Source: an uncultured Nitrososphaerota archaeon
GTDB taxonomy: Archaea > Korarchaeota > Korarchaeia > Korarchaeales > Korarchaeaceae
Length of the DNA: 39,645 nucleotides
Assembly: GCA_964594835.1 (NCBI GenBank)
Contig: CAZQNA010000001.1
Location: 257,089 to 296,733 of the forward strand
Direction of reading: 5' to 3'
The notes beneath the pieces were generated by a model. That model saw nothing but the letters and a program-made list of their open reading frames with translations. It was not told the DNA's origin and searched no databases. Shown piece after piece: positions 770-25,241 of this stretch. Position numbers and translations under genes: made by a program. The stretch's first letter is position 1, and every line of letters starts with the position of its first letter.

Positions 770-1246
770 ATGGCCTCCCTCTCCGAGAGGCTGAGGCAGG
801 AACTCTGGGGTAAGAGGGTGATCGTCCTCTGCCTCGGGTCTGACCTGAGGGGGGACGACGCCGCAGGGCTCATGGTCTGCGATCAGCTGTCTGAGAGGGG
901 CCTATCTGATCTTGTCATAAGGGCAGGACTGCTGCCGGAGGCGTACATCCCGGAGCTGAGGAGGAGACGGGCGGAGGTCGTCCTGATGGTCGACGCCATC
1001 GACGCAGGGCTCCCACCGGGATCCGTAGTGCTGGCTGAGCCCCCCTTCCGGGAGGCCGCGCCGGCGACCACGACCCACGGCCTCCCGCTCGACGCGGTGG
1101 CGGCCCTCATTCAGGGCGAGATCTCGGACGTCAGGGTGCTCCTCCTGGGAATTCAGATAGCTCAAACCGAGGTCGGGTCATCAGTCTCTCCCCCTGTGTC
1201 TAAGTCAGCTCGTCTGGTGGCCGATCTCATCTCTCAAGCCCTTTAG
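770..1246 (+). CDS. hycI: [NiFe]-hydrogenase maturation endopeptidase (HycI/HybD family)
   Basis: Motifs LGSDLRGDDAAG, PE, VDAID and TTHGLPL; lies next to a hydrogenase large subunit with a C-terminal extension. Confidence 0.92.
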   Translation: MASLSERLRQELWGKRVIVLCLGSDLRGDDAAGLMVCDQLSERGLSDLVIRAGLLPEAYIPELRRRRAEVVLMVDAIDAGLPPGSVVLAEPPFREAAPATTTHGLPLDAVAALIQGEISDVRVLLLGIQIAQTEVGSSVSPPVSKSARLVADLISQAL

Positions 1247-1379
1247 AAGAGGAATTTTTCGATACTGTTAAATTATTTTACTGACTCCTCCAGCACGCCC
1301 TGGGGCGGATATTCACAAACAATTTTGTTCAAACTATAGAGCTATATTTAACGCAGAAAAGGAATAAAATCCATATCCT

Positions 1380-1394
1380 GAAAAATTTTTATTC
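1380..1394 (+). promoter_or_regulatory. BRE/TATA promoter of operon 1
   Basis: GAAAAATTTTTATT about 30-40 nt upstream of ATG 1425 in a strongly AT-rich intergenic region; overlapped by inverted repeat GGAATAAAA (1361-1369) / TTTTATTCC (1387-1395). Confidence 0.6.
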
Positions 1395-1424
1395 CACTTT
1401 CGGTCACCTAAACCGGGGTCCCCG

Positions 1425-1739
1425 ATGATAGACCCGTTCGTGGCGTTCTTCGTGGCGCTGATAGGGCTGACGATCTTCTTCACGGCCTCAGGCAAGTGGG
1501 CACCCTCGAGACCGTCCGAGATGAAGGAGGAGGTCTACGCCTGCGGTGAGAGAGGGGAGCCCCTCGAGGGTGGCGCCATAAGCATAAGCTTCTCCGAGTA
1601 CCTCGCGTACTTCGCCCTGCTGGAGATGGCCCCCCTCCTCCTCGCCCTCGCGGCCTTCTCCGGCGTCCTGAATCCGCTGATCCTCTTTGTGTACGCCATT
1701 CTCGCGGCGATAGCCAGCGCGATAGTCTCGTGGAGGTGA
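1425..1739 (+). CDS. NuoA-like membrane subunit of hydrogenase complex
   Basis: 104 aa, three hydrophobic segments, loop KEEVYACGE matching NuoA YECG; first gene of the operon. Confidence 0.8.
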   Translation: MIDPFVAFFVALIGLTIFFTASGKWAPSRPSEMKEEVYACGERGEPLEGGAISISFSEYLAYFALLEMAPLLLALAAFSGVLNPLILFVYAILAAIASAIVSWR

Positions 1740-2218
1740 TGGGCGTGAGCAGCGTGACGGAGAGGCTGGTGCCGTGGTGCAGGACCAGGTCCCCCTGGAT
1801 ACTCCACTTCAACTCCGGGGCGTGCAACGGATGCGACATAGAGCTCGTGGCCGCCCTGACCCCGAGGTACGACGTCGAGAGGTTTGGCATCCTCCTGAAG
1901 CCGTCCCCCAGGCACGCGGACATACTGGTGGTGACCGGCCCGGTCACGAGGCAGCAGAGGGAGAGGCTCGTCAGGATCTACGAGCAGATGCCGGAGCCCA
2001 AGGTGGTCGTGGCCCTGGGCGCCTGCGGGGGGAGCAGCGGGGTGTTCGCGGGCGGGTACTCCGTAGAGGACGGCGGGACCGACCGGGTGATCCCTGTGGA
2101 CGTGTACGTCCCTGGCTGCCCGCCCAAGCCCGAGGCCATAATCCTGGGGATTGCCAGGGCGATTGAGCTGCTGAGCCAGAAGGGCCTCAGAGGGGGAGGT
2201 GAGGGGGTTGAGCGGTGA
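1739..2218 (+). CDS. Group 4 [NiFe]-hydrogenase small subunit (NuoB/EchC/MbhJ-like)
   Basis: SGACNGCDIE (CxxC), PRHADIL, GACG, VPGCPPKPE. Start uncertain (1730/1739/1745). Confidence 0.93.
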   Translation: MGVSSVTERLVPWCRTRSPWILHFNSGACNGCDIELVAALTPRYDVERFGILLKPSPRHADILVVTGPVTRQQRERLVRIYEQMPEPKVVVALGACGGSSGVFAGGYSVEDGGTDRVIPVDVYVPGCPPKPEAIILGIARAIELLSQKGLRGGGEGVER

Positions 2219-2651
2219 GAGCCTGGCGGAGCTTGTCCCCTGGGCGGAGGAGGTCGTTGAGGAGAGGCGCGGGATGATCGGGATCAGGGTACCAAGGGAG
2301 AGGCTGAGGGACACGTTCTCCGCCCTGAAGCGGGCCTACGGAATGGTCCAGGTCTCCATGATAACGGGTACGGACATGGGGGACAGGTTCGAGCTGGCCT
2401 ACTTCGTCTGGCTCCACGTCCGCAAGCTGTACGTGGTCCTGAGGACCTCCTGCCCAAGGGACTCGCCCGAGGTCGACACGCTCGTTGACTTGATCCCCGG
2501 CATACACGTCTACGAGAACGAGGTGTACGACCTGCTGGGGGTGAACTTCAGGGGCAACGACGGACTGGTGAGCCCGTTCCTGAAGCCAGAGACCATGAGG
2601 CCCGACGAGTATCCGCTCAGGAGGGACTGGGGGAGGGGTGACGCGAAGTGA
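2199..2651 (+). CDS. NuoC-like subunit (EchD/MbhK-like)
   Basis: ITGTD, YENEVYDLLGVNFRG, YPLRRDW; start may be TTG 2208. Confidence 0.9.
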   Translation: MRGLSGESLAELVPWAEEVVEERRGMIGIRVPRERLRDTFSALKRAYGMVQVSMITGTDMGDRFELAYFVWLHVRKLYVVLRTSCPRDSPEVDTLVDLIPGIHVYENEVYDLLGVNFRGNDGLVSPFLKPETMRPDEYPLRRDWGRGDAK

Positions 2652-3811
2652 GAGTGGTGGTCCCGTTCGGCCCGCACCATCCGGCCCTGCACGAGCCGGA
2701 GCACTTCACCTTCGAGGTCGACGGCGAGGTCGTGGTGGCGGTGAGGCCCAGGATCGGATACGTCCACAGGGGGATCGAGAAGCTGGCCGAGGGCAAGACC
2801 TGGATCCAGAACCAGTACCTCGTCGAGAGGGTCTGCGGCATCTGCAACGTGTCCCACACCCTGTGCTACGTCGAGGCGGTCGAGGACCTGTCCGGACTGG
2901 AGCCCCCGAGGAGGGCGAGGTACCTGAGGCTGGTGGCCCACGAGCTCAACAGGCTCCACAGTCACCTGCTGTGGCTCGGCGTGATGGCCGAGCTGATGGG
3001 GTTCCACACGGTCTTCATGTACACCTGGAGGGACCGCGAGCTAGTCATGGACCTGATGGAGGAGCTCACTGGAAACAGGCTCCTCTCCGCTTACAACAAG
3101 GTGGGAGGAGTGTCCAGAGACGTCAGCGATGCCTTCGTCGGCAGCCTCCTGAGGGCGCTGGACAGGCTCGACGAGAGGTTCAGGTTCTACCTCCGCGTCG
3201 CCCAGGATGACCCGACGATCCTCGCGAGGACCCAGGGTGTGGGAACCCTCGACAGGGAGTCTGCAGTCAGGTACTGCGTCGTGGGCCCCGTGGCTAGGGC
3301 CTCCGGCCTCAGCTGGGACGTCAGGGTGGACAGGCCCTACGCCGCCTACGATGAGGTCCCCTACAGGATAGTCACCAGGACGGAGGGGGACGTCTGGGCC
3401 AGACTGATGGTGAGGGTGGAGGAGCTGCTTGCGGCCTCGGAGGCGATCAGGCACGCCGTCACCCACCTCCCCGAAGGCCCGATCAGGTACGCGGCACCGC
3501 GCAAGATGCCGGAGGGGGAGGGCGTCGGGGTGATAGAGGCCCCTAGGGGGGAGCTGCTGTATCACGTGATCAGCGACGGGAGGGACAGGCCGTACAGGCT
3601 GAAGATCAGGACTCCGACCCTCGCCAACATAACGGCCGCGTGCGAGGCCTTCGTCGGGAGCTCGATAGCCGACATACCGATGATCCTAGGGAGCATAGAC
3701 CCCTGCTTCTCCTGCATGGACAGGCTCGCGTTCGTGGACGTGTCCAGGGGCAGGAGGTGGATCATGACCCCGCTTGAGATCCAGAGGGAGTACGGGAGGT
3801 GGGTGAGTTGA
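2648..3811 (+). CDS. Group 4 [NiFe]-hydrogenase large subunit
   Basis: GPHHPAL, L1 motif ERVCGICNVSH, EAPRGE, L2 motif DPCFSCMDR followed by a C-terminal extension. Confidence 0.95.
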   Translation: MRVVVPFGPHHPALHEPEHFTFEVDGEVVVAVRPRIGYVHRGIEKLAEGKTWIQNQYLVERVCGICNVSHTLCYVEAVEDLSGLEPPRRARYLRLVAHELNRLHSHLLWLGVMAELMGFHTVFMYTWRDRELVMDLMEELTGNRLLSAYNKVGGVSRDVSDAFVGSLLRALDRLDERFRFYLRVAQDDPTILARTQGVGTLDRESAVRYCVVGPVARASGLSWDVRVDRPYAAYDEVPYRIVTRTEGDVWARLMVRVEELLAASEAIRHAVTHLPEGPIRYAAPRKMPEGEGVGVIEAPRGELLYHVISDGRDRPYRLKIRTPTLANITAACEAFVGSSIADIPMILGSIDPCFSCMDRLAFVDVSRGRRWIMTPLEIQREYGRWVS

Positions 3812-4791
3812 CGCTGGTCGAGGTGCTGACGCTCCTGTTCAAGCTGACCGTCTTCCCGGGATTCCTCTTCCTGTTCGTGGGGTCCCTGCTCACGGAGTGG
3901 TACAAGCGGAAGATCGTGGCGAGGATGGAGAACAGGATGGGCCCGGCCTACACGGGCCCGGCCGGCATGCTCCAGCCCCTCGCCGACTTCTTCAAGCTCC
4001 TGACTAAGGAGGAGATCATCCCAAGGGGGGCGGACGCGCTCGCCCTCAGGGCGGCCCCGCTCCTGACCTCGGCCTGCTTCATCTTCGCCCTCTACTTCAT
4101 CCCCGTCACGGGGCGGGCCCTGGTGGACCCGCCGGCGGGGCTCCTCATAGTCCTCCTGATAACGGCCATGGCCTCTGGCACCATGTACGCCATGGGGTGG
4201 GCCAGCGCCAACCCCTACGGCGCAATCGGCGCGGTGAGGGTCCTGTCCCAGGTCCTGGGGTTCGACATCCCCCTCTTCGTCCTGTCGCTCGTCCCGGCCC
4301 TCATCACGGGTAGCCTGTCTGTCACTGAGATCTCCAGCCGGATCCTTCCCACCCTGGCCGAGAGGCCGTGGCTGATCCCGCTCTGGCTTGCCTCGCTCGC
4401 CCTCTACCTGATCGCTATGCAGGGCGAGATAGAGGAGAATCCATTCAACATACCGGACGCGGAGCAGGAGATCGTCGCCGGCTACTTCACGGAGCTCAGC
4501 GGGAGGAACCTGGCGTTCTTCGACCTGGCCAGGGACTCTCAGTTCCTCTTCCTCTGCGCCATCGCCTCCACCCTGTACCTCGGGGGACCGCACCCGCTCT
4601 TGGACCCATACGGGATCTCAGCCGTGGCGCTGACCCTCGGCAAGACGCTCCTCGTCATAACGGTCTCCATGCTGATCAAGGCTACCAGCGCCAGGATCAG
4701 GCTCGATCAGGCGATCTCAAACTTCTGGAGGGTGGGTGTGCCCCTCTCGCTCCTGATACTGGCCGTGTCCGCTGTGGTGGGGGGTGCGTGA
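3808..4791 (+). CDS. NuoH-like membrane anchor (MbhM/EchB/HycD family)
   Basis: RKIVARMENRMGP, GMLQPLADFFKLLTKE, PFNIPDAEQEIVAGYFTELSG, RIRLDQ; TTG 3808 overlaps the upstream stop (alternative GTG 3799). Confidence 0.93.
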   Translation: MTLVEVLTLLFKLTVFPGFLFLFVGSLLTEWYKRKIVARMENRMGPAYTGPAGMLQPLADFFKLLTKEEIIPRGADALALRAAPLLTSACFIFALYFIPVTGRALVDPPAGLLIVLLITAMASGTMYAMGWASANPYGAIGAVRVLSQVLGFDIPLFVLSLVPALITGSLSVTEISSRILPTLAERPWLIPLWLASLALYLIAMQGEIEENPFNIPDAEQEIVAGYFTELSGRNLAFFDLARDSQFLFLCAIASTLYLGGPHPLLDPYGISAVALTLGKTLLVITVSMLIKATSARIRLDQAISNFWRVGVPLSLLILAVSAVVGGA

Positions 4792-4792
4792 G

Positions 4793-5248
4793 ATGGAGGT
4801 CCCGCGGCTGCTACGCGAGGTGTGCTCAAGCCTCTTCAGGAGGCCCGCGACCCTCCAGTACCCCATGGAGAGGAGGAGCCCGCCGCCCGGGTACAAGGGC
4901 GTCCACAGCCACCTCGCCGAGAGGTGCATAGGGTGCGGGCTTTGCGCCATCGACTGCCCCACGGGCGCCATAGAGATGGTGATGTACCCGGAGGCCAAGA
5001 GGAAGCTCCCCGTCGTACACCTGGAGAGGTGCATCTTCTGCTACCAGTGCGCCGAGTCCTGCCCTTACGACGCCTTCTCCCCCACCTCCCTCTTCGAGAT
5101 CGCCGTCAGGCTCGGAACCCCCGAGGAGGAGGCGCTAGTGGTCGCGCACCCCAAGGGCTCCGTGGGGCCCCTGAAGGAGAGGCCGAGGCCGAAGCCCCCG
5201 CTCCCGAGGCCCCCTGCGGGCGGGGCGGGAGGAGGTGAGAAGAGATGA
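4793..5248 (+). CDS. NuoI-like 2x[4Fe-4S] subunit
   Basis: TLQYP, CIGCGLCAIDCP and CIFCYQCAESCP; Pro/Gly-rich tail. Alternative start 4784. Confidence 0.93.
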   Translation: MEVPRLLREVCSSLFRRPATLQYPMERRSPPPGYKGVHSHLAERCIGCGLCAIDCPTGAIEMVMYPEAKRKLPVVHLERCIFCYQCAESCPYDAFSPTSLFEIAVRLGTPEEEALVVAHPKGSVGPLKERPRPKPPLPRPPAGGAGGGEKR

Positions 5249-5706
5249 CCCTGGTGGACGTCGTGGGGCTGGCCCTCGCGGTGGCCGGCTCGGGGCTCGC
5301 CATATACTCGCTCGAGAGCGTGAGCAACGTGAGGATAGTCTTCGCCGCGGCGGGGGCCCTCCTCTCCCTGTCCATAATGTACTGGGCGGTGGGCCTCTGG
5401 CCCCTTTCCCTCCTCCAGCTCGCCCTGGCAGCCTCGGACCTGGTCATCATAGCCCTCGGGTCCTCCACGCTCAACGAGGAGGTGAGGGCCTGGGAGAGGG
5501 GGTTCGCGGCGGCCATGGCCCTCCTGACTCTCACGATCCTCCTGCTCTCACTCCTTCCAACGGTGTCCGAGAGGGGGCCAGTCGCGAGGGTCATGATCCC
5601 GCTCTCACCGGAGATATCGCCGTACTTGCTGATGCACGGGCTCCTCCTGATCTCGGGGTCTCTCGCGCTCGCGGCCGCGCTGAGGCTGGGAGGTGAGGGT
5701 GAGTGA
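5245..5706 (+). CDS. Divergent NuoJ-like membrane subunit
   Basis: 153 aa, about five hydrophobic segments, positioned between the I- and K-like genes; motif conservation is weak (SLLQLAL aligns with NuoJ QxxVY). Confidence 0.65.
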   Translation: MTLVDVVGLALAVAGSGLAIYSLESVSNVRIVFAAAGALLSLSIMYWAVGLWPLSLLQLALAASDLVIIALGSSTLNEEVRAWERGFAAAMALLTLTILLLSLLPTVSERGPVARVMIPLSPEISPYLLMHGLLLISGSLALAAALRLGGEGE

Positions 5707-6014
5707 TACTGGAGGCCATCCTGTTCACCTCGATCGTGCTCATCAGCGCCGCGCTCTACGGGCTCATATCGAGGGACAACCCCGTCAAGCTGCTGGTGGC
5801 GTTTCAGCTCCTGGCGGCCGGGGGTGTGGGCGTCCTGGCCGCGCTCCTGGTGGGCTCCGAGAGCACGTTCTTCGTTCAGTCCGGTCAGACGCTCGCCGTG
5901 CTTCTGATAGCCACGGACCTCACGACGGAGGCCATACTGCTCGCGTCTCTCCTCACCATGGTCCGGAGGCTCGGGGTCAGGAGGCTGAACGAGCTGTCCA
6001 GCCTGAGGGGGTGA
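5703..6014 (+). CDS. NuoK-like membrane subunit
   Basis: 103 aa, three TM segments, LYGLISRDNPVKLLVAFQLL, TTEAIL and C-terminal LSSLRG typical of NuoK. Confidence 0.82.
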   Translation: MILEAILFTSIVLISAALYGLISRDNPVKLLVAFQLLAAGGVGVLAALLVGSESTFFVQSGQTLAVLLIATDLTTEAILLASLLTMVRRLGVRRLNELSSLRG

Positions 6015-7924
6015 TGGGCTTGAACCTCGGCGCGGCGTCCTGGATGTGCGTGCTGGTGCCCCTCGCGGCGTCTGGCGCTATCTTTGCGCTTGGGGCCATC
6101 GGACTCGCCAGGCGGAGGCTGGTCGAGGGAATCGCCTCAGGGGCGGCCCTGGCGGGGGCCAGCCTCGCGGCCTACCTGGCCGCCGCCTCGGCGGGCCTTG
6201 AGGGGCCCGTGACCTTCCCCGTGGATCTCGTGTCCCCAATCCTGACTCTGAACGGCCTCTTCAGCTTCCAGCTGTTTTTGGACCGCCTCTCAGCCGTGAT
6301 GACCTTCTTCGTCTCCGTGATCAGCGCGGCTATCGTGGTCTACTCGGTGGGCTACATGGGGGAGGACGAGGCCTACGTGAGGTACTACGGCCTGATGACG
6401 CTGTTCATAGGGTCCATGGTGGGGCTCGTGCTCTCGGGCAACCTCGTCCTGCTCTACCTGTTCTGGGAGGCCGTGGGGCTCTGCTCCTGCCTGCTCATCG
6501 CCCACTGGTGCGAGAGGCCCGAGGCCGCCAGGGCCGGGGTCAAGGCCTTCGCGGTCACCCGGTTCGGGGACTTCGCGCTGCTGACTGCGATATCGCTCCT
6601 CTACCTGAACCTGGGGTCTCTGGATTACCCGAGCCTCGCCGAGGGCATGGGCTCCCTCCCGCCCGGCCTCCTGAACCTCATACTCCTGCTGGCGCTGGGC
6701 GGCGCCGTGGGGAAGTCGGCCCAGCTCCCCCTGCACGTCTGGCTCCCGGACGCCATGGAGGGACCCACCTCCGTGAGCGCCCTCATCCACGCGGCCACCA
6801 TGGTGAAGGCCGGCGTCTACCTGGTGGCCAGGTTCGACGCGCTAGCGATTCTGTACGGAGGCGTCGCGGTCGACGCCATCTCCGGGTTCCTGAACGCGGT
6901 CCTCCTCGTCGGGTCCGTGACGGCCCTGGTCGCGGCGACGATGGCCGTCGTCGCCTACGACCTGAAGAGGGTGCTGGCCTACTCCACCATAAGCCAGCTG
7001 GGCTACATGTTCTCTGCCGTCGGCCTGACGCTGTACGCCGGGGCTCAGAGATCGCTCTGGTCCGCGCTCTACCACCTGACGAGCCACGCGGTCTTCAAGG
7101 CCCTCCTGTTCATGGCCGCCGGGGCGGTGATACACGCCGTCGGGACCAGGGACATGAGGGTGATGGGCGGGCTGGCGGACAGGATGCCCCTGACATTCCT
7201 GGGGTTCACCCTGGGCTCGCTGTCCCTGGCCGGGGTACCTCCGCTCAACGGCTTCTTCAGCAAGGACGCGGTGGTCGGCCTCGCGCTGGAGGCGGTCCAC
7301 GAGGCCCCCCTGCCGGCCGCGCTCCTCCTGGGAGGGGCGGCCATGACCGCCTTCTACATACTGAGGGCCCTCTACTTGACCTTCCTCGCCCCGCCCGGAG
7401 AGGCCTCGGGGCGCGCACACGAGGCCCCGATCACCATGACCGGGCCGGTGGCGTTCCTGACCCTCCTCACCCTCCTCTCCCCCGCCCTCTACGGGGCCCT
7501 CGCCGGTGGGGCCGAGGGGGTGAGGCACGCCCTCCACTTCACCCCGGCGCACGCTGCCGCATCGCTGTCGGCCGTTGGCTTGGGAATCTCGCTGGCCCTC
7601 GCGGCCTACTGGGCCAGGACAGGACCTTTGATGGCCGTCGCCGATACCTCCGTCGGCAGGGCGGTCAGGGAGGTCCTGGAGCGCGGCTACTACTTCGACG
7701 ACCTGTACGCCAACTTCCTGGTGCCCATAGTTAGGGGCCTGGCCCAGGAGCTGCTCGCCGGGCTGGACATGGCCATCGATGGCCTCGTCCAGATGGCGGG
7801 GGTCGGGGCGGGCAGGACGGCCGACCTCCTCAGGAGGGCCCACACCGGGAGGCTGACCCACTTCTTCGCCGCTTCCGTTCTGGGGATTCTCCTTCTCCTG
7901 ATAGCGTCCGTGCTGGGAGGTTGA
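6014..7924 (+). CDS. NuoL-like antiporter subunit with lateral helix
   Basis: ATG 6014 overlaps the upstream TGA; WEAVGLCS, TRFGD, GKSAQLPLHVWLPDAMEGPTSVSALIHAATMV, HAVFKALLF, GFFSKD, C-terminal GYYFDDLY..IDG..HTG. The N-terminal part of ORF 5693 is a shadow extension. Confidence 0.93.
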   Translation: MGLNLGAASWMCVLVPLAASGAIFALGAIGLARRRLVEGIASGAALAGASLAAYLAAASAGLEGPVTFPVDLVSPILTLNGLFSFQLFLDRLSAVMTFFVSVISAAIVVYSVGYMGEDEAYVRYYGLMTLFIGSMVGLVLSGNLVLLYLFWEAVGLCSCLLIAHWCERPEAARAGVKAFAVTRFGDFALLTAISLLYLNLGSLDYPSLAEGMGSLPPGLLNLILLLALGGAVGKSAQLPLHVWLPDAMEGPTSVSALIHAATMVKAGVYLVARFDALAILYGGVAVDAISGFLNAVLLVGSVTALVAATMAVVAYDLKRVLAYSTISQLGYMFSAVGLTLYAGAQRSLWSALYHLTSHAVFKALLFMAAGAVIHAVGTRDMRVMGGLADRMPLTFLGFTLGSLSLAGVPPLNGFFSKDAVVGLALEAVHEAPLPAALLLGGAAMTAFYILRALYLTFLAPPGEASGRAHEAPITMTGPVAFLTLLTLLSPALYGALAGGAEGVRHALHFTPAHAAASLSAVGLGISLALAAYWARTGPLMAVADTSVGRAVREVLERGYYFDDLYANFLVPIVRGLAQELLAGLDMAIDGLVQMAGVGAGRTADLLRRAHTGRLTHFFAASVLGILLLLIASVLGG

Positions 7925-7930
7925 TGGGAG

Positions 7931-9445
7931 TTGGATCCGGCGACTGTGGTGTTCACCTCGTTCTTCACGCTCTCGGCGCTGACGGTCTTCGCCGGTAGGC
8001 TCCTCGGGGCGAGGGCGCAGAGGGCAGCCTGGGTGACCGCCGCCCACCTCCCGGGGTACTACTCGGTCTACCAGGTGTGGAGGGGGGTCACCTCCTCCCC
8101 CGACCACGTGTTCAGCATGAGGCCGCTGGGCGTGGAGGGGCTCATGGCCGCCGACGCCTTCAGCTCATTCATGGCCCTCGTGGCAGTCTTCGGCTCCCAC
8201 ATGCTCATGTCCTACGCCGCCGCCACGATCGACGATCCCGACGCCTTCTCGAGGTTCGCGGCCGCCGGGCTGGCGGGGACCGGCGCCGTAGTGTCGACGT
8301 TCTACTCCGTGAACCTCCTGGCCCTGACGATCCTGTGGGAGGCCACCGTCGCCGCCGAGGTGGGGATGATCCTCATTGGAAGGGGCGAGGGGGTCGTCGA
8401 GGCGGCGGTGAAGGTGTCGGCGATGGCGATGTTCTCCTCCCTGCTCATGGTTACTGGACTCGGACTCCTCTTCGCAGCGCTGGGGAACGTCGGGGTCACG
8501 CTCAACTCCTTCAACATACCGTGGGTCGCCAGCCACGTTCCCCTGGCGTACAGAGGATCGGAGATAGTGATACTGATAGCCTTCGCCCTGCTCGTGGCTT
8601 CCCTCGGCATCGAGGTCGGGGCGGCTCCGTTCTACATGTGGCTCCCGGACATGTACTCCGGGGCCTGGCCGGAGGCCGTCTCGCTCGTCGTCACCACCGT
8701 GGACCTGGGCGGACTCTATTTGCTCGCGAGGATCACCGGGATGTTCGCGCGCCTGCCGGTGTCCAGGGTGGTCGCCCTGGGCGGCCTCACGCCCCTGCTC
8801 CTGGCCTTGGTCATCCTCTCCCTGTTCTCAATGACGCTCGGAGAGCTCTCAGCCCTCGGACAGACGATGGTAAGGAGGATTCTGAGCTACAGCGCCGTCG
8901 CAGACGCCGGGTACGTCCTGCTCCTCTCGACCTACTTCTTCTGGGGAGGGGTCGTCCCCTTCGGTTGGGCGGCCTACTCGGCACAGCCCCTCGCGTACTT
9001 CGTGGTGGCCAGCAACCTCTCCATATCCGCGGCCGTCGCGGCCGTGGGCTATCTAGAGCGGAGGATGGGCGGCTCGGACCTCGAGTCCTTCAGGGGGGCC
9101 GCGAGGTATCACCCGCTGGCGTCGGTGCTCCTCGCCATGTCCCTCCTCTCCCTCTTCGGCGTTCCCCCCATGGCCGGCTTCGTGGCGAAGTTCCTGGTCG
9201 TCTCCGCCCTCGTGACGGCGCCTATACCCGCGATGCTCTGGGTGGCGGCGGTGGCCACGGTGTTCTTCGTGGTGAGCGCCGCGTACGGCATGAAGGTCAT
9301 AGGGACCTGCGCGCGGGAGAGGGACACCCCTCCACCGGCCGCGGAGGGGGACTGGGTGCCGCTGCTTCCAATAGCGCTCATAGTCGTGCTTCTGGTGTTG
9401 ATAGGGGTGGATCCATCGCTCCTCCTGTCCGTGTTCGCGAGGTGA
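7931..9445 (+). CDS. NuoN-like antiporter subunit with atypical charged residues
   Basis: LWE, GAAPFYMWLPDMYSGA, RRILSYS, LSLFGVPPMAGFVAKF. Confidence 0.85.
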   Translation: MDPATVVFTSFFTLSALTVFAGRLLGARAQRAAWVTAAHLPGYYSVYQVWRGVTSSPDHVFSMRPLGVEGLMAADAFSSFMALVAVFGSHMLMSYAAATIDDPDAFSRFAAAGLAGTGAVVSTFYSVNLLALTILWEATVAAEVGMILIGRGEGVVEAAVKVSAMAMFSSLLMVTGLGLLFAALGNVGVTLNSFNIPWVASHVPLAYRGSEIVILIAFALLVASLGIEVGAAPFYMWLPDMYSGAWPEAVSLVVTTVDLGGLYLLARITGMFARLPVSRVVALGGLTPLLLALVILSLFSMTLGELSALGQTMVRRILSYSAVADAGYVLLLSTYFFWGGVVPFGWAAYSAQPLAYFVVASNLSISAAVAAVGYLERRMGGSDLESFRGAARYHPLASVLLAMSLLSLFGVPPMAGFVAKFLVVSALVTAPIPAMLWVAAVATVFFVVSAAYGMKVIGTCARERDTPPPAAEGDWVPLLPIALIVVLLVLIGVDPSLLLSVFAR

Positions 9446-9457
9446 TGGTCTGGGGAG

Positions 9458-10975
9458 GTGATTGACACGATAACGCCCATCGCCGTCGTCCTGATCCCGC
9501 TGGGCTCGGCCCTGATCTCCTACATGCTCAGGGACGATCCGAGGGCCTCCGCCGCCTCGGCCACGGTGGCGCCTCTCCTGTCCGCGATCGTCCTCCTCAT
9601 CGGGTTCAGGGCCAGGACGCCAATCACCGAGGTTTGGTGGAGCAGCTGGGTCCCGGGGTTCCTGCCGGGGGTCAGGGGAGTGGGCTTCGTCATGAGGATG
9701 GACGGCCTGTCGCTCGCCATGTGCCTCATGACGTGCATCCTCTACGCTGCGGCGATGCTCTACGCCCTCTCATACCTCGAGGAGAGGGGCGCCCAGGGCG
9801 CCTTCTACTCCCTAGCCATGCTGCTCCTGACGGCCCTCTTGGGAGTCTTCCTGAGCTGGAACCTGCTGGCGTTTTACATCTTCTGGGAGCTCATGGCGGT
9901 CCCGTCGTTCTTCATGATCTCTGAGTGGGGTTACGCCAACGCCAGGGAGGCGGCCATGAAGTTCTTCCTGTACACAAGGGCCGGGGCCCTCCTCATAATC
10001 CTGGCGATGGCCATGGCCTACAACAGGCTCGGCACCCTCGACCTGGACGCCATAGCGGCCCTCGCCTCGGGATGGCCGGCCCTGCCGGTGGCGTCCTTCC
10101 TGATGACGGTAGGCTTCATGATCAAGGCCGGCTGCTTCCCGCTGCACTCCTGGCTCCCGGACGCCCACTCTCAGGCCCCTGCGCCGTTCTCGGCGCTGCT
10201 CAGCGGGGTCCTTGTGGCCACGGGGATATACTCGATACTGAGGATACCGCTCGCCTCCTTCTGGCTGCCAGGAGGCGGAGGAGACTCTCTACCAACCGTG
10301 CTGACCGCCCTGGGGCTGGCATCTACGTTCTTCGGCGCCATGAGGGCCATGAAGGAGACCGACATAAAGAGGGTCCCGGCCTACTCCAGCATAAGCCACA
10401 TGGGCTACGCGCTCACGGGGCTCGGCCTTGGGACGTCTGCTGTCCTGCACGGTCACCCCGAGGCCGGAAGGCTCATCCTCGTAGGCTCAATGTTCCACCT
10501 CGTCGCCCATGCGTGGAGCAAGGGCCTCCTGTTCCTCTCGGCCGGCTCGGCAATGCACCTGCTGGGGAGGAGGGACATCACGAGGATGGGCGGCGGCCTC
10601 AGGCTCCTCCCGATGACCTCGGTGGCGATGATAGCGGCGGCCATGAGCATAGCCGGCTCACCCCCGTTCCCCTGCTTCATCAGCGAGGTCTCGATGATAG
10701 TGGGCTCGGCGTCCTCTGGGCTTCCCCAGGGCGGGCTGATTGCGGCGTCCCTGGCCTTCGCGACTGTGCTGAGCGCCGGGTACGCGCTCCGCCTCGTCTA
10801 CCACGTGGCCTGGGGGAGGCCGCCGGATGGACTGGCCCGGGAGCAGTCCGTGACCGAGCCTTTCGAGATGACGGTGCCGATGCTCGCCCTGGCCATGCTG
10901 CTTGCCCTGACATTCTTCGTGCCCCTGGTCGTCCTGGCCCCCGTCGACCTGACGATCCTGGACATGGTGGGGTAG
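9458..10975 (+). CDS. NuoM-like antiporter subunit
   Basis: DGLS, FWELMAVP, IKAGCFPLHSWLPDAHSQAP, YSSISHMG, PCFISE (TM12 Glu typical of NuoM); SD GGAGGTG upstream. Confidence 0.9.
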   Translation: MIDTITPIAVVLIPLGSALISYMLRDDPRASAASATVAPLLSAIVLLIGFRARTPITEVWWSSWVPGFLPGVRGVGFVMRMDGLSLAMCLMTCILYAAAMLYALSYLEERGAQGAFYSLAMLLLTALLGVFLSWNLLAFYIFWELMAVPSFFMISEWGYANAREAAMKFFLYTRAGALLIILAMAMAYNRLGTLDLDAIAALASGWPALPVASFLMTVGFMIKAGCFPLHSWLPDAHSQAPAPFSALLSGVLVATGIYSILRIPLASFWLPGGGGDSLPTVLTALGLASTFFGAMRAMKETDIKRVPAYSSISHMGYALTGLGLGTSAVLHGHPEAGRLILVGSMFHLVAHAWSKGLLFLSAGSAMHLLGRRDITRMGGGLRLLPMTSVAMIAAAMSIAGSPPFPCFISEVSMIVGSASSGLPQGGLIAASLAFATVLSAGYALRLVYHVAWGRPPDGLAREQSVTEPFEMTVPMLALAMLLALTFFVPLVVLAPVDLTILDMVG

Positions 10976-11006: not shown

Positions 11007-11104
11007 AGGAAAAGTATAACGAGGGACGCTGACACGGGTCTCTGGAGAATCAGGGGAGTTAGCCAGCGGTGTTGCCCGCTTAGACGGCTTGTCGGCGGGG
11101 GGTG

Positions 11105-11121
11105 TTAAAATGTTTTATAAT
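11105..11121 (+). promoter_or_regulatory. BRE/TATA promoter of operon 2
   Basis: TTAAAATGTTTTATAAT with TATA core TTTTATAA at 11113-11120, about 30 nt upstream of ATG 11150. Confidence 0.65.
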
Positions 11122-11149
11122 TGATCTTCGGCCCCTGCCGGGGCCGGCC

Positions 11150-11536
11150 ATGCCTCCTCTGCAGAGTGGCTCAAGCGCCTGCTTGGCGTTCGCGGTCGCG
11201 CTCCTGTTGGGAATCGGAATAGGGGTGATTGGATACGCGCTGGGGAAGATCCTGTCCCCCACGAGGTCCCTCCCCAAGAAGAAGATGAGGTACGAGTGCG
11301 GGAACCCGCCGAAGGGTAGGGCGAGGGGCATATTCACCATGCAGTACTACCCCTACCTCATAGTGTTCCTGACCGTCGAGCCGGTGGCCATCTACGGCTT
11401 CCTCGTCGCGCTGGCCGCGCACGCCAGGACGCTTGCGGTTGCTGGCATCCTCGGGGCCATGATCCTCATGCTCATCCCGCCCCTGATATTCGGCCTCAGG
11501 CTTGCCGGGAGGCTTGAGCTATGGTCTGTGGAATGA
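11150..11536 (+). CDS. nuoA: Complex I-like oxidoreductase subunit A
   Basis: KKMRYECGNPP, YYPYLIVFLTVEP; ATG 11150 preferred over 11102 because the TATA box lies between them. Confidence 0.9.
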   Translation: MPPLQSGSSACLAFAVALLLGIGIGVIGYALGKILSPTRSLPKKKMRYECGNPPKGRARGIFTMQYYPYLIVFLTVEPVAIYGFLVALAAHARTLAVAGILGAMILMLIPPLIFGLRLAGRLELWSVE

Positions 11537-12045
11537 GCGGGTCCATGTGGATTGGAGACCTGGAGAGGACCGCCAGGAAGGCGGCCAGGTGGCTCGTGGA
11601 GAGGACGCCCATCCGCTCCGTAAGGGACTGGGGGATCGCGTTCTCTCTCTGGCCCGTGCACTTCACAACCGCCTGCTGCGGGGCCGAGTTCGCCGCCGCC
11701 TCCGCGCCAAGGTTCGACGCGGAGCGGTTCGGCTTCCTCCCGTTCGTGGCCCCCAGGCAGTGCAACCTCATGCTGATTGAGGGTACGCTCACCAAGAAGA
11801 TGGCCGACGCGGCCATATGGGTCTACGAGCAGATGCCGGAGCCCAAGTTCGTCGTGGCCATGGGCGCCTGCGCGATAGACGGCGGGATCTTCTGGAACAG
11901 CTACAACATAGTCCGGCCCAAGGACATCCTCCCGGTCGAGGTGTTCATCCCGGGGTGTCCCCCGAGGCCGGAGGCGGTGGCGAGGGCAGTGATCAGGCTC
12001 CAGAAGAGGATAAGGAGGGGTGAGGCCATTGGCCTCAAAGTCTGA
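11533..12045 (+). CDS. nuoB: Complex I-like oxidoreductase subunit B
   Basis: TACCGAE (adjacent Cys pair of cluster N2), FDAERFG, QMPEPKFVVAMGAC, PGCPPRPE. Confidence 0.95.
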   Translation: MSGSMWIGDLERTARKAARWLVERTPIRSVRDWGIAFSLWPVHFTTACCGAEFAAASAPRFDAERFGFLPFVAPRQCNLMLIEGTLTKKMADAAIWVYEQMPEPKFVVAMGACAIDGGIFWNSYNIVRPKDILPVEVFIPGCPPRPEAVARAVIRLQKRIRRGEAIGLKV

Positions 12046-12544
12046 GCAGGGTCAGGGAGGAGTCGAGGCAGCGCCCCTCGGGGAACTTGAGGCCCTCCTC
12101 AGCGAGGTGCTGGAGGGCCTGTCACCCGAGATATCGGCTGTCGGGGGAGCGGTGGCGGTCAAAGTGCCTCCTGACCGCCTCAAAGAGGCCGCGGAGAGGC
12201 TAAGGGGCGCGGGCTTCGACCACGTCAAGGCGGTCACGGGCATAGACCGGCCAGACTCGGGTGAGATCGAACTCGTCTACCACGTGTCATCCTACCTCGA
12301 TCCAAGGCTGTCGAAGTGCATCGTCGCCCTGAGGACCACCCTGCCGCGGGACGATCCGGTGACTCCCTCTCTGTACGAGGTGTGGCCCAGCGTGAAGTAC
12401 CACGAGATGGAGCAGATGGAGATGCTCGGCATCCAGTTCTCGGGTCACCCGGACCCGAGGAGGCTGCTCCTGCCCGAGAGCTACGAGGGCATCCCCCCGC
12501 TCAGGAAGGACTTCAAGGTGAAGGTGGAGGGGATCAACGCATGA
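12020..12544 (+). CDS. nuoC: Complex I-like oxidoreductase subunit C
   Basis: VTGID, EMEQMEMLGIQFSGHPDPRRLLLPE, PLRKDF; exact start uncertain. Confidence 0.92.
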   Translation: MRPLASKSEQGQGGVEAAPLGELEALLSEVLEGLSPEISAVGGAVAVKVPPDRLKEAAERLRGAGFDHVKAVTGIDRPDSGEIELVYHVSSYLDPRLSKCIVALRTTLPRDDPVTPSLYEVWPSVKYHEMEQMEMLGIQFSGHPDPRRLLLPESYEGIPPLRKDFKVKVEGINA

Positions 12545-14732: not shown

Positions 14733-15259
14733 GTTCCAAGAGGTGGGAATCCCCGATCTTCAGGCTCAAGGGACACCTGGAGGCCATACTCACCGGCGCT
14801 AAGTACCTGGTGACGCCCAGGGCGACGGTGAGGTACCCGGAGGAGGTGATCGAGCTCCCGGAGGGCTACAGGGGATACATCGCCTACAAGAAGGAGCTGT
14901 GCATCAGCTGCGGCCTCTGCGCCACGGTGTGCCCGGCGAACGCCATGAAGATGTACCTGGAGGAGGCTCCCCAGGCCCCTGAGGGAGGGGAGGGAGGGGC
15001 GAAGCCCAAGCCCAAGAGGCACCCCGGGATAAACTACACCAGGTGCATATTCTGCGGCTTCTGCGTGGATGTCTGCCCCACCGGAGCCCTGGAGCACGTT
15101 GAGACCCACGACGTGGCCTACGAGGAGTTCGACTCCATGATCTACCCGCCCCCGGACTTCGAGGCCGGTCCGCCCAGCTCCGAGTTCGAGAGGCCTCCCA
15201 GTCGGCTGAGGCCCAAGATGGATGAGAGGAGGGGGATCGCGTATGAGCCTGCCGATTGA
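14729..15259 (+). CDS. nuoI: Complex I-like oxidoreductase subunit I
   Basis: ATG 14729 overlaps the nuoH stop; TVRYPEE, CISCGLCATVCP, CIFCGFCVDVCPTGAL. Confidence 0.94.
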   Translation: MSSKRWESPIFRLKGHLEAILTGAKYLVTPRATVRYPEEVIELPEGYRGYIAYKKELCISCGLCATVCPANAMKMYLEEAPQAPEGGEGGAKPKPKRHPGINYTRCIFCGFCVDVCPTGALEHVETHDVAYEEFDSMIYPPPDFEAGPPSSEFERPPSRLRPKMDERRGIAYEPAD

Positions 15260-15731: not shown

Positions 15732-15734
15732 GGC

Positions 15735-16043
15735 ATGCCCACGATCTACTGGTACCTCCTCGTGTCCTTCGCCCTGGCCGGGATAGGGCTCTACGGAATG
15801 CTCACCAGGAGAAACCTGATCAGAATGCTGATCTCGGTGGAGCTCATCTTCAACGGAGCCCTGCTGGCCCTCCTCAGTCTCACATCCATCTCCGCGGCCT
15901 ACAAACCCACCGGCGTCGTCCTGGCGCTGCTCGCCATATCGCTGGCGTCCGCGGAGGTCGGAGTCGTGGTCTCGATCGCGATCCTCATGTTCCGGGTCAA
16001 GAGGAGCCTGGACGTTTTCGAGATTGCCGAGTCTAGGGGGTGA
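15735..16043 (+). CDS. nuoK: Complex I-like oxidoreductase subunit K
   Basis: RRNLIRMLISVELIFNG and LASAEVGV; both conserved Glu present. Confidence 0.93.
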   Translation: MPTIYWYLLVSFALAGIGLYGMLTRRNLIRMLISVELIFNGALLALLSLTSISAAYKPTGVVLALLAISLASAEVGVVVSIAILMFRVKRSLDVFEIAESRG

Positions 16044-17587: not shown

Positions 17588-17601
17588 GGTGAGTCCGCGG
17601 A

Positions 17602-25240: not shown

Positions 25241-25241
25241 C

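What the first reader, a model, noticed from the sequence alone, without database searches (positions are those of the whole stretch)
770..10975. A [NiFe]-hydrogenase built on a complete 11-subunit complex I chassis
Seen: eleven tightly coupled genes map one-to-one onto NuoA, B, C, D, H, I, J, K, L, N and M. The D-like subunit has RVCGIC and DPCFSCMDR plus a C-terminal tail, the B-like subunit has CNGC rather than CC, and a maturation protease sits upstream. Known: the characterised group 4 enzymes (Ech, Hyc, Hyf, Coo, Pyrococcus Mbh) do not have this stand-alone NuoA + J + K + full-length L + M + N set, and Mbh carries an Mrp E/F/G/B-type Na+ module that is absent here. Inference: this is a complex I-shaped H2-evolving or H2-consuming ion pump, resembling a proposed intermediate between hydrogenases and complex I. 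Related operons may already be classed among uncharacterised group 4 subgroups; I cannot check that here.
Basis: partly seen in the sequence, partly recalled or inferred. Interest (0 to 1): 0.85.

Follow-up and report, generated by a model that had tools for sequence, protein, structure and literature searches.

The report
Complex I-shaped nickel-iron hydrogenase operon
A hot-vent archaeon carries an operon for a hydrogen-making enzyme built from all eleven core parts of respiratory complex I; the operon is real, but such enzymes have been noted in other archaea, and none has been studied at the bench.

Summary
Window 770-10975 (+) encodes a HycI-type protease and eleven overlapping genes in the order NuoA-B-C-D-H-I-J-K-L-N-M. 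The D subunit keeps both NiFe motifs and a 28-residue HycE-like tail. B has four Cys (CxxC type), and I has two 4Fe-4S motifs. NuoA and NuoJ only became visible with ortholog profiles. L is full length, including the lateral helix. hypA, C, D, E and F are in the genome.

The organism is a korarchaeon. Directly downstream lies a Cys-less paralogous Nuo-like operon, 26-41% identical. The same gene layout occurs in Bathyarchaeia, Thermoprotei and Thorarchaeota MAGs. Only 3 of 40 genomes of its class have it, and it is missing at this site in a same-genus genome.

Complex I-like hydrogenases are already in print for Asgard archaea, and "group 4g with Nuo-like subunits" for Korarchaeia. This is therefore a new member of a known, uncharacterised kind.

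New detail: the N subunit has acidic residues where NuoN has two lysines, in 10 of 10 family members.

Most likely function: ferredoxin-driven H2 evolution coupled to ion export.

The parts
770..1246 (+). HycI-type hydrogenase maturation endopeptidase (158 aa)
   Evidence: Pfam PF01750, 1.4e-9. TIGR00072, 79.9 bits over the 47.45 cut-off; best equivalog is hycI.
1247..1424 (+). AT-rich spacer with TATA-like runs; probable promoter of the 11-gene operon (inferred)
   Evidence: Sequence read, in a genome of 65% GC. No transcript data.
1425..1739 (+). NuoA/ND3-like subunit (104 aa, YACGE motif)
   Evidence: No Pfam or NCBIfam hit alone. 31% identical to the neighbouring operon's NuoA, E 2.4e-4. 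The 12-ortholog profile hits ND3/NuoA/NdhC in 25 of 26 rows.
1730..2218 (+). Small subunit, NuoB-like, with one [4Fe-4S] site: C32-x2-C35, C99, C130
   Evidence: PF01058, 1.7e-32. Sequence. It has CxxC, not the tandem CC recalled for NuoB.
2199..2651 (+). NuoC-like subunit (150 aa), not fused to D
   Evidence: PF00329, 1.7e-20.
2648..3811 (+). [NiFe] large subunit (387 aa). L1 motif RVCGIC at nt 2828-2845, L2 motif DPCFSCMDR at nt 3698-3724, 28-residue tail at nt 3725-3808
   Evidence: PF00346 plus the PF00374 N-terminus. C63, C66, C353 and C356 are invariant in 23 of 23 aligned homologs. NCBIfam NuoD NF004739 scores 363.4 against a cut-off of 360, so pipelines name it NuoD.
3799..4791 (+). 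NuoH-like membrane anchor
   Evidence: PF00146, 6.3e-78. Against PDB: NuoH/NdhA/Nqo8 118-128 bits, MbhM 89, MbsM 63, HycD 40.
4784..5248 (+). NuoI-like 2x[4Fe-4S] subunit; likely ferredoxin entry point (inferred)
   Evidence: Two CxxCxxCxxxCP motifs. Fer4 families. TIGR01971.
5245..5706 (+). NuoJ/ND6-like subunit (153 aa, unsplit)
   Evidence: No hit alone. The 10-ortholog profile hits NdhG at 2.1e-8 over its full length; MbsD and MbhD match only the N-terminal half.
5703..6014 (+). NuoK/ND4L-like subunit (103 aa). The E. coli E36 position is Gln here, and the E72 position is Thr
   Evidence: PF00420, 1e-5. Profile hits: NdhE 2.5e-19, MbhG 7.6e-17, NuoK 3.3e-16. Residues.
6011..7924 (+). NuoL-like antiporter subunit (637 aa) with a C-terminal lateral helix and a last TM helix
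   Evidence: NF005141 matches positions 5-611 of 615. Aligns end to end with the NuoL chains 8e9g_L, 4he8_L and 3rko_L. AF2 model pTM 0.81, helices 547-558, 561-608 and 615-635, with low pLDDT over 558-622. The top 39 Foldseek hits are NuoL/ND5/NdhF, TMq 0.75-0.81. E144, K229, H254, K342, K399 and D400 are all kept.
7931..9445 (+). NuoN-type antiporter-like subunit (504 aa) with E-E-D-K where NuoN has E133-K217-K247-K395
   Evidence: PF00361, 1.4e-26. The best NCBIfam hits are NuoN models, all below their cut-offs. Residues. Only 6 library representatives reach E<=1e-30.
9458..10975 (+). NuoM-type antiporter-like subunit (505 aa); TM12 Glu as in NuoM
   Evidence: TIGR01972, 268.6 bits over the 263.8 cut-off. 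E144, K234 and E407 are kept; the K265 position is Ala.
11102..21177 (+). Neighbouring paralogous Nuo/Fpo-like operon (A B C D H I J K M L N), with no NiFe cysteines. Context, not part of the hydrogenase
   Evidence: 26-41% identical to operon 1 subunits. Its D is 70% identical to the NuoD of Korarchaeum cryptofilum.

Best explanation
The locus encodes a membrane-bound group 4 [NiFe]-hydrogenase whose twelve genes build a complex I-shaped enzyme.

The peripheral arm (B, C, D, I) would carry three [4Fe-4S] clusters and a NiFe site. That site sits where complex I binds quinone. The membrane arm (H, A, J, K, N, M, L) is held together by the lateral helix of L. The large subunit would be matured by the genome's Hyp proteins, and its 28-residue tail cut off by the protease encoded just upstream.

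The genome has no NADH or F420H2 input module, and the operon sits beside ferredoxin-reducing enzymes. The most likely reaction is therefore oxidation of reduced ferredoxin at subunit I, with reduction of protons to H2 at D. The released energy would drive ion export through the membrane arm. This is the Mbh job done with a complex I body.

Shown: the genes, motifs, homologies and distribution. Inferred: assembly, the electron donor, the direction of the reaction, the ion and the stoichiometry.
For: - All 11 subunits plus the protease are present and tightly coupled.
- The NiFe ligands are intact here and invariant in 23 of 23 homologs. B has 4 Cys and I has 8 Cys.
- The D tail resembles the tail of E. 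coli HycE (..DR then xxxVDV), and the protease is HycI-like.
- hypF, D, A, C and E are all over their cut-offs in the genome.
- No NuoF (PF01512) or FpoF/FrhB (PF04432) was found in a 97% complete genome.
- Two aldehyde:ferredoxin oxidoreductases and a ferredoxin-like gene lie 2-20 kb downstream.
- No CdhC was found, so there is no Wood-Ljungdahl demand for H2-made ferredoxin.
- L keeps all six checked residues of NuoL and its lateral helix. M keeps 3 of 4.
- The same layout is conserved in distant archaea. Of 80 related loci, 10 have three antiporter-like genes after I. An A-like gene is present in 11 of 11 loci with upstream sequence, and K in 13 of 13.
- Authors propose the same function for group 4g and Asgard relatives (passages of PMC10667645, PMC11291895, PMC9723716).
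Against: - There are no expression or biochemical data. Everything beyond gene content is inference.
- Energetics (my arithmetic from textbook potentials): Fd (about -500 mV) to H+/H2 (-414 mV) yields roughly 17 kJ per 2 e-. Even at very low H2 the yield is perhaps 40 kJ. That pays for 1-3 ions, not the 4 H+/2e- of complex I, so a four-site arm cannot work as it does in complex I.
- The N subunit lacks both canonical lysines, in 10 of 10 family members. K lacks the E72 equivalent in 13 of 13, and in this window also E36. The proximal ion path may therefore be altered or inactive.
- The hyp genes sit next to a second, group-1-like hydrogenase that same-genus genomes also have. They do not prove that this enzyme is matured.
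- Canonical HypB (TIGR00073) was not found.
- Same-genus genomes lack the cassette, so it is dispensable.
Confidence: 0.6

Rival explanations
1. The enzyme is the same but runs the other way in the cell. It would use the ion gradient to push electrons from H2 onto ferredoxin, as Eha, Ehb and Ech do in methanogens. A large membrane arm would then serve to feed several ions per electron pair into an uphill reaction.
For: The organism comes from hydrothermal-vent metagenomes, where H2 is available. A many-ion arm suits an ion-driven uphill reaction better than a low-energy downhill one (inference). PMC10667645 (passages) discusses group 4g in possible H2-dependent growth of some Korarchaeia.
Against: No CdhC/ACS was found. 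I found no obvious sink for H2-derived ferredoxin, though I did not survey the genome for one. The neighbourhood holds ferredoxin-producing AORs and a peptidase. The genome already has a group-1-like uptake hydrogenase with a HybA-like subunit.
Confidence: 0.2
2. It is a hydrogenase whose membrane arm works largely as a Na+/H+ exchanger or Na+ exporter rather than a multi-site proton pump. That would be Mbh-like ion logic, with the carboxylate-rich N module as the cation site. This is a variant of the best explanation, not an exclusive alternative.
For: The N subunit has E-E-D/E-K instead of E-K-K-K in 10 of 10 family members. The same is true of only 9 of the best 150 library representatives, including all 6 closest. 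NuoK's E72 is absent in 13 of 13. There is also the energetic shortfall described above (inference). Mbh couples H2 evolution to Na+/H+ exchange (abstracts of PMC8679088 and PMC11228991, seen in the listing).
Against: No Mrp E/F/G/B-type subunits are present. No structure or ion assay exists. Carboxylates can also carry protons. I did not determine the ion specificity of the ATP synthase.
Confidence: 0.2
3. The cassette is a relic, or has been repurposed as a non-hydrogenase. The cysteines would be retained but no NiFe inserted, so it would act like an Ehr- or Nuo-type complex with another acceptor.
For: Cys-less or degenerate relatives exist in the same class: G032 ends ..IDICFGEVDK and G004 ends ..FDPWYLDADR. 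Same-genus genomes lack the cassette.
Against: All 12 reading frames are open. The four ligands, the tail and a dedicated protease are all kept together. The large subunit is 92% and 86% identical to metagenome proteins with the same motifs. GC and GC3 match the genome.
Confidence: 0.05

Closest known systems
Complex I-like group 4 [NiFe]-hydrogenases of Asgard archaea (Freyarchaeia/Atabeyarchaeia, PMC11291895; Heimdallarchaeia groups 4j-4q, bioRxiv 10.1101/2024.07.04.601786; passages read)
   Same: A NiFe large subunit in a Nuo-like gene set. The L-like subunit has a full helix HL. Ferredoxin-to-H2 is the predicted reaction. No biochemistry exists. A Hodarchaeaceae locus and a Thorarchaeota locus are in the same family, at 48-50% identity.
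   Different: [quoted passage not shown] Here, and in 10 other TACK or Thorarchaeota loci, there are three (L, M, N) plus A, J and K. The host is a korarchaeon. I could not place the sequence in subgroups 4j-4q because no reference sequences were at hand.
HydDB group 4g (uncharacterised, ferredoxin-coupled). Label used for Omnitrophota/Cloacimonadota (PMC8542988), Culexarchaeia (PMC9723716) and Korarchaeia (PMC10667645)
   Same: The large subunit is 46-51% identical to bacterial relatives from Omnitrophota, Bacillota, Anaerolineae and others. Ferredoxin-to-H2 with ion translocation is the predicted reaction.
   Different: In 47 of 80 loci, nearly all of them bacterial, the antiporter-like genes lie upstream of B (layout L-L-M-B-C-D-H-I-protease), not downstream after J and K. 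In my tree the 15 bacterial rows form their own clade (SH-aLRT 93). HydDB itself could not be run. PMC11291895 notes that 4g is polyphyletic.
Pyrococcus furiosus Mbh (group 4d; 6CFW)
   Same: It is the best solved match of the large subunit (267 bits). Same chemistry at the B/D/I arm. MbhD and MbhG are homologs of J and K.
   Different: Mbh has one antiporter-like subunit, a short lateral helix and Mrp-type small subunits (PMC8165549 passages). Here there are three antiporter-like subunits, a NuoL-length L, an unsplit J, a NuoA, and no Mrp E/F/G/B families. H is nearer to NuoH (128 bits) than to MbhM (89 bits).
11-subunit complex I / NDH-1 without NuoEFG, such as the neighbouring operon at 11102-21177 or cyanobacterial NDH-1
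   Same: The same 11 subunit families in near-identical order. L, H and A score best against Nuo/Ndh chains. NCBIfam's NuoD model is passed.
   Different: D has NiFe ligands and a cleavable tail instead of a quinone site. B has CxxC. N and K lack key charged residues. The operon is only 26-41% identical to the neighbouring Nuo operon.
E. coli FHL/Hyf (group 4a)
   Same: HycI-type protease and a HycE-like C-terminal tail.
   Different: No formate dehydrogenase or HycB partner. C and D are not fused. HycD and HycC are distant (40 and 88 bits). HycE and HyfG sit on a long separate branch.

Membership tests
Group 4 membrane-bound [NiFe]-hydrogenase | Large subunit with the N-terminal RxCGxC and C-terminal DPCxxC NiFe-binding motifs | tested here: met
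   RVCGIC (C63, C66) and DPCFSC (C353, C356). Invariant in 23 of 23 homologs.
Group 4 membrane-bound [NiFe]-hydrogenase | Small subunit with four Cys for a single proximal [4Fe-4S] cluster | tested here: met
   C32, C35, C99 and C130. PF01058.
Group 4 membrane-bound [NiFe]-hydrogenase | Maturation machinery: Hyp proteins, plus an endopeptidase if a C-terminal tail is present | tested here: met
   Protease at 770-1246 and a 28-residue tail. hypA, C, D, E and F are over their cut-offs. TIGR00073 hypB was not found. I recall that some archaea use an Mrp/MinD-type HypB; this was not tested.
Group 4 membrane-bound [NiFe]-hydrogenase | Binds Ni-Fe and turns over H2 | not testable with these tools
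   Needs metal analysis and an activity assay.
Respiratory complex I / NDH-1 (Nuo, 11 core subunits) | Homologs of NuoA, B, C, D, H, I, J, K, L, M and N in one operon | tested here: met
Respiratory complex I / NDH-1 (Nuo, 11 core subunits) | D subunit without NiFe ligands (a quinone site), ending at the ..DR position with no tail | tested here: not met
   D keeps all four Cys and a tail. The neighbouring D2 shows the Nuo state: VERPPLADTANH and ..DYFPPEADR*.
Respiratory complex I / NDH-1 (Nuo, 11 core subunits) | NuoL with a long lateral helix and a terminal TM helix | tested here: met
   The helix itself is modelled with low pLDDT.
Respiratory complex I / NDH-1 (Nuo, 11 core subunits) | Canonical charged residues of the ion path: NuoN E133/K217/K247/K395 and NuoK E36/E72. 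Numbering recalled, then checked on the E. coli sequences fetched | tested here: not met
   N has E-E-D-K. K has Q at position 36 and T at position 72. L has 6 of 6 and M has 3 of 4.
Mbh-type (group 4d) hydrogenase | Mrp-derived small subunits (MbhA-C, F) and a single antiporter-like subunit | tested here: not met
   None of the 12 genes hits an Mrp E/F/G/B family. Three antiporter-like subunits are present.
HydDB group 4g | Assignment by the HydDB classifier or its reference tree | not testable with these tools
   HydDB is not available here. Relatives from Omnitrophota and Korarchaeia carry this label in print.
Asgard complex I-like hydrogenases (groups 4j-4q) | Placement of the large subunit in those clades | not tested
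   No reference sequences were available. Asgard loci L037 and L061 are family members at 48-50% identity.

The most novel reading that the evidence does not exclude
The archaeal complex I-shaped hydrogenases are not simply complex I with a NiFe site. Their N-position module carries a conserved carboxylate set (E-E-D/E-K where NuoN has E-K-K-K), and their NuoK lacks the second channel glutamate. The proximal membrane arm would then be a distinct kind of ion path, possibly a Na+ or exchange site. That could let the very small ferredoxin-to-H2 energy span drive a full three-antiporter arm.

A second, separate reading also remains open. The 'group 4g hydrogenase common to all Korarchaeia' in print may largely be the Cys-less Nuo-like complex. 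True NiFe versions would then be rare in the class: 3-4 of 40 species genomes.
Probability: 0.2. Interest if true: 0.75.

Novelty: new member of a known kind. Interest (0 to 1): 0.5.

Why it matters
Complex I is thought to descend from membrane-bound hydrogenases. Enzymes that combine a live NiFe site with the complete complex I membrane arm are the best living models for that transition, and none has been purified.

This locus offers three things:
- A compact, intact example: 12 genes in 10.2 kb.
- A Cys-less paralog right next to it, as a built-in comparison.
- Natural presence/absence within one genus.

The changed charges in the N and K subunits give a concrete, testable handle on an open question: how can a low-energy reaction be coupled to a four-module ion arm?

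There is also a practical point. Annotation pipelines name the large subunit 'NuoD' (names), so such hydrogenases are easily missed, or confused with Nuo/Fpo-like complexes, in metabolic reconstructions.

Tried and rejected
- **Single-sequence scans of the A and J genes.** Pfam and NCBIfam found nothing. Ortholog profiles were needed.
- **Recent horizontal transfer of the cassette.** I suspected it for three reasons: same-genus genomes lack the cassette; in-class relatives are 52% identical; out-of-class relatives are 56-59% identical. But GC (0.658 against 0.649) and GC3 match the genome. A tree with the korarchaeal sequences held together is not rejected and scores higher (p-AU 0.669). Gain versus repeated loss is therefore left open.
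- **'NuoD arose from within this hydrogenase family'.** The quick tree shows this: a 47-row set with SH-aLRT 98. The AU test does not reject monophyly of the hydrogenases (p 0.447). My only other group 4 references were E. coli HycE and HyfG. I make no claim.
- **FeFe hydrogenase complementarity.** PF02906 was found in 0 of 40 class genomes, including G000. This gives no contrast to use, and it does not match the FeFe hydrogenase reported for Korarchaeia in PMC10667645. The reason is unknown.
- **Expression.** No RNA holder is listed. Four DNA runs from two studies hold at least 0.93 of the sampled words.
- **A ~20-nt similar stretch (..CCACTATTTTT).** It follows the stop of the upstream gene and the stop of M. 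It could be a terminator, a promoter element or an insertion scar. The intergenic DNA is not alignable with G006, so this is undecided.
- **Supplements closed.** Supplementary Figs S4 and S5 of PMC10667645 would show which korarchaeal loci were called 4g. Supplementary Data 8 of PMC11291895 would show the Asgard tree. I could not see either, and both bear on the novelty claim.
- **Literature searches for TACK descriptions of an A-to-N hydrogenase operon.** Searches gave none, or nothing relevant by title and abstract.

Full report
**1. The observation**

The + strand of window 770-10975 holds twelve ORFs. From the second gene on they are translationally coupled: overlaps are 4-20 nt and gaps 6-12 nt. 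Only a 178-nt AT-rich spacer (1247-1424) separates the first gene from the rest.

Pfam and NCBIfam identify the following:
- a HycI-type endopeptidase
- NuoB, NuoC, NuoH, NuoI and NuoK (weak)
- a protein carrying both Complex1_49kDa and the N-terminus of NiFeSe_Hases
- a full-length NuoL (model positions 5-611 of 615)
- a NuoN-like and a NuoM-like protein

The large subunit reads RVCGICNVSH and DPCFSCMDR, followed by 28 more residues. The small subunit has C32-x2-C35, C99 and C130. The NuoI-like protein has two CxxCxxCxxxCP motifs.

The proposed NuoA (1425-1739) and NuoJ (5245-5706) gave no hit on their own, so I tested them with profiles.
- I collected orthologs from related loci and aligned them.
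- The A profile hit ND3/NuoA/NdhC chains in 25 of 26 PDB rows, best 8e-7, and no Mbh chain. A is also 31% identical to the Pfam-positive NuoA of the neighbouring operon (E 2.4e-4).
- The J profile hit chloroplast NdhG best, at 2.1e-8 over positions 19-144 of 154. MbsD and MbhD covered only the first half.
- The K profile scored NdhE, MbhG and NuoK about equally.

L aligns end to end with mycobacterial, Thermus and E. coli NuoL.
- An AF2 model (pTM 0.81) ends in helices 547-558, 561-608 and 615-635. This is a lateral helix plus a last TM helix, though that part has low pLDDT.
- Its 39 best Foldseek matches are all NuoL/ND5/NdhF chains, with TMq 0.75-0.81.

**2. Surroundings and organism**

Only 126 nt downstream begins a second 11-gene operon (11102-21177) in the order A B C D H I J K M L N.
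- Its D has no NiFe cysteines (VERPPLADTANH...) and ends at ...DYFPPEADR*.
- The two operons are 26-41% identical subunit for subunit, so they are old paralogs.
- This D2 is 70% identical to the NuoD of Candidatus Korarchaeum cryptofilum and 80% identical to a Korarchaeota MAG protein. The genome is therefore korarchaeal.

The genome is 1.82 Mb, 97% complete and 65% GC. The sequence is held by hydrothermal-vent metagenome runs.

Further downstream lie two aldehyde:ferredoxin oxidoreductases, a ferredoxin-like protein and an M42 peptidase.

Elsewhere in the genome:
- hypF, hypD, hypA, hypC and hypE are all over their cut-offs. They sit beside a second, group-1-like hydrogenase with a HybA-like subunit.
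- TIGR00073 hypB was not found.
- NuoF, FrhB/FpoF and CdhC were not found.

**3. The family**

The large subunit's nearest database relatives are unnamed metagenome proteins (92% and 86% identity) and a partial Korarchaeota protein (92%). Next come Thermoprotei, Nezhaarchaeota, Geothermarchaeota and Bathyarchaeia proteins at 52-59% identity. Many of these are annotated as NuoD. The four cysteines are invariant in 23 of 23 aligned members.

A scan of one genome per species found 593 relatives. Note that its search patterns were the two NiFe motifs themselves, so every hit carries them by construction.

The best 80 loci sort as follows:

| Layout | Loci (of 80) |
|---|---|
| B-C/D-H-I, a ~0.9 kb gap, then three antiporter-like genes | 10 (Bathyarchaeia, Thermoprotei, Nitrososphaeria-labelled, Thorarchaeota) |
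| Same start, but the contig ends after the first antiporter-like gene | 4 |
| Antiporter-like genes upstream of B | 47 (nearly all bacterial) |
| None nearby | 19 (15 of these with short flanks) |

In 13 archaeal loci that I read:
- An A-like gene (YACGE motif) precedes B in 11 of the 11 loci that have upstream sequence.
- The gap after I holds a J-like gene in 9, or two half-genes in 4.
- A K-like gene is present in 13 of 13.

The 11-subunit layout is therefore a recurrent archaeal architecture, not a peculiarity of this window.

**4. Within Korarchaeia**

I searched 40 species genomes of the class. A full-length Cys-bearing large subunit appeared only in G000, G031, G034 (52% identity) and G025 (46%, different gene order).
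- G031 and G034 share the window's order, A B C D H I J K L N M.
- The other genomes gave the split 42-46% hit pattern typical of the Cys-less D2. I verified absence of the motifs in six of them.
- Two further forms are degenerate (G032, G004).

In the same-genus genome G006, operon 2 is 83-97% identical. The homolog of window gene 127-723 (70% identity) sits directly upstream of its NuoA, so the whole 12-gene cassette is absent at that site. G008 also lacks it. G005 and G007 gave no Cys-type hit.

Composition does not mark the cassette as foreign. A tree with the korarchaeal sequences held together is not rejected (p-AU 0.669). I therefore cannot say whether the cassette was gained or repeatedly lost.

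**5. Relation to complex I**

I built an 82-row tree of D subunits with E. coli HycE and HyfG as outgroup.
- The Cys-less NuoD clade (19 rows, SH-aLRT 99) fell inside a 47-row set (98) together with the archaeal 11-subunit hydrogenases.
- The 15 bacterial relatives formed their own clade.
- However, the AU test does not reject a tree in which all hydrogenases are monophyletic (p 0.447).
- I also had no Mbh, Ech, Coo, Eha or Ehb sequences.

By score against solved chains:
- D is about as close to MbhL (267 bits) and HycE (253 bits) as to NdhH (235 bits) and Nqo4 (222 bits).
- H, L and A are clearly nearer to Nuo/Ndh than to Mbh, Mbs or Hyc.
- M and N are ambiguous.

**6. Where it departs from complex I**

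I mapped residues on E. coli sequences fetched. The numbering is recalled from the literature, and each residue was confirmed in the fetched sequences.
- L keeps E144, K229, H254, K342, K399 and D400.
- M keeps E144, K234 and E407. It has Ala at K265, but so do all 11 family M subunits (none has Lys there) and the neighbouring Nuo-type M.
- N keeps E133 and K395 but has Glu at K217 and Asp at K247. All 10 family N subunits examined have an acidic residue at both positions.
- Among the best 150 representatives of a 1.84-billion-protein library, 9 share this pattern, including the 6 closest. 118 read E-K-K-K.
- NuoK's E72 equivalent is missing in 13 of 13 family members. E36 is Gln only in this window.
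- The main texts of the two Asgard papers do not mention lysines or charged residues of these subunits.

**7. How it most likely works**

*Shown:* a complete, intact gene set for a NiFe site, three FeS clusters, an NuoH anchor and a seven-subunit membrane arm, together with maturation genes.

*Inferred:*
- Reduced ferredoxin, from AORs and 2-oxoacid oxidoreductases of a peptide fermenter, docks at subunit I.
- Electrons pass through I and B to the NiFe site in D, and protons are reduced to H2.
- The conformational and electrostatic change at the D/B/H/A interface drives ion movement through the arm.

*Energetics* (my arithmetic, using the potentials quoted in the abstract of PMC9304861 in the listing):
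- About 86 mV gives about 17 kJ per H2 under standard conditions.
- At very low H2 this may reach roughly 40 kJ.
- Complex I's 4 H+/2e- (PMC8165549) would cost about 58 kJ at 150 mV.

The arm therefore cannot run at complex I stoichiometry. Either some modules are not pumps, or they exchange ions as in Mbh, or the enzyme works in reverse. The altered N and K residues fit the first two options.

**8. What is known, and novelty**

- Group 4g is an uncharacterised HydDB class whose members are predicted to oxidise ferredoxin and move ions (PMC9723716, PMC8542988; passages).
- PMC10667645 reports a group 4g hydrogenase 'common to all Korarchaeia genera', co-located with Nuo-like genes including NuoL and NuoM. 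Its legend says 4g 'corresponds to Nuo in arCOG'. My class scan suggests that most of those loci may be the Cys-less operon 2 type.
- PMC11291895 models a 'complex I-like NiFe-hydrogenase' with a full helix HL in Asgard archaea.
- PMC8407382 calls related Bathyarchaeia clusters 'fpo-like'.
- My searches for a description of the full A-to-N hydrogenase operon in TACK archaea found none.

The thing itself is therefore a new member of a known, still uncharacterised kind. What is new here:
- the complete three-antiporter arm outside Asgard archaea
- the tandem position next to its Cys-less paralog
- the presence/absence polymorphism within one genus
- the conserved charge changes in N and K

**9. 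Limits**

- There are no transcripts, no protein and no HydDB classification.
- The tree is a quick search with few outgroups.
- Residue mapping rests on sequence alignment of divergent membrane proteins.
- The lateral helix is modelled with low confidence.
- Supplements of the key papers were not readable.

Noticed in passing
window 11102-21177 (+): A second 11-gene complex I-like operon (A B C D H I J K M L N) starts 126 nt after the hydrogenase operon. Its D subunit has no NiFe cysteines and no tail. It is 26-41% identical to operon 1, and 83-97% identical to the same operon in a same-genus genome.
   Followed up: yes
window 724-11101, compared with L106 (G006:C9) 5400-7000: In same-genus genome G006, the homolog of window gene 127-723 lies directly upstream of the Nuo-like operon. 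The 12-gene protease-plus-hydrogenase cassette is absent at that exact site. Gain versus loss is not resolved.
   Followed up: yes
window 7931-9445 (N subunit); also L018, L027, L029, L030, L050, L061, L072 and L109: The positions of E. coli NuoN K217 and K247 are acidic (E/D and D/E) in 10 of 10 N subunits of this hydrogenase family, while E133 and K395 are kept. Only 9 of the best 150 library representatives share this pattern.
   Followed up: partly
window 5703-6014 (K subunit): The NuoK E36 position is Gln in this window only (the other 12 family members have Glu). The E72 position is non-acidic in 13 of 13, and many have an Asp three residues earlier.
   Followed up: partly
class genomes G001-G039; loci L100-L107: Most korarchaeal genomes carry only the Cys-less D2-type subunit (motif absence verified in six). 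The published 'group 4g hydrogenase common to all Korarchaeia' may therefore refer to a complex without NiFe ligands. I could not check this because the supplement is closed.
   Followed up: partly
G000:C1:7264-19048 (L001, L004-L007, L010): A group-1-like [NiFe]-hydrogenase (small subunit, 596-aa large subunit and a HybA-like FeS subunit) sits among hypF, hypD, hypA, hypC and hypE, about 240 kb upstream of the window. Same-genus G006 has the large subunit too.
   Followed up: partly
window 23303-25796 (-) and 29076-30884 (-): Two aldehyde:ferredoxin oxidoreductase genes, one followed by a 4Fe-4S ferredoxin-like gene. An M42 aminopeptidase domain lies at 33653-35872. This is a ferredoxin-producing, peptide-fermenting neighbourhood.
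   Followed up: no
window 728-748 and 10986-11005: A similar ~20-nt stretch (CCCACC..CCACTATTTTT) follows both the stop of the upstream gene and the stop of the last hydrogenase gene. It could be a terminator, a promoter element or an insertion scar.
   Followed up: no
L027, L029, L033, L036, L050, L061, L071, L072, L083: In these loci (mostly Bathyarchaeia with a fused C-D gene, plus one Thorarchaeota and one Anaerolineae) the large subunit ends exactly at ...DPCFSC[TMN]DR with no tail. It should therefore need no endopeptidase.
   Followed up: no
L098 (G032) and L099 (G004): Class and order relatives about 40% identical to the large subunit have degenerate motifs (..IDICFGEVDK, ..FDPWYLDADR). 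These may be stages of loss of the NiFe site.
   Followed up: no
40 class genomes: The Pfam FeFe-hydrogenase large-subunit domain PF02906 was found in 0 of 40 korarchaeal genomes, although a paper reports a group A FeFe hydrogenase in all Korarchaeia.
   Followed up: no
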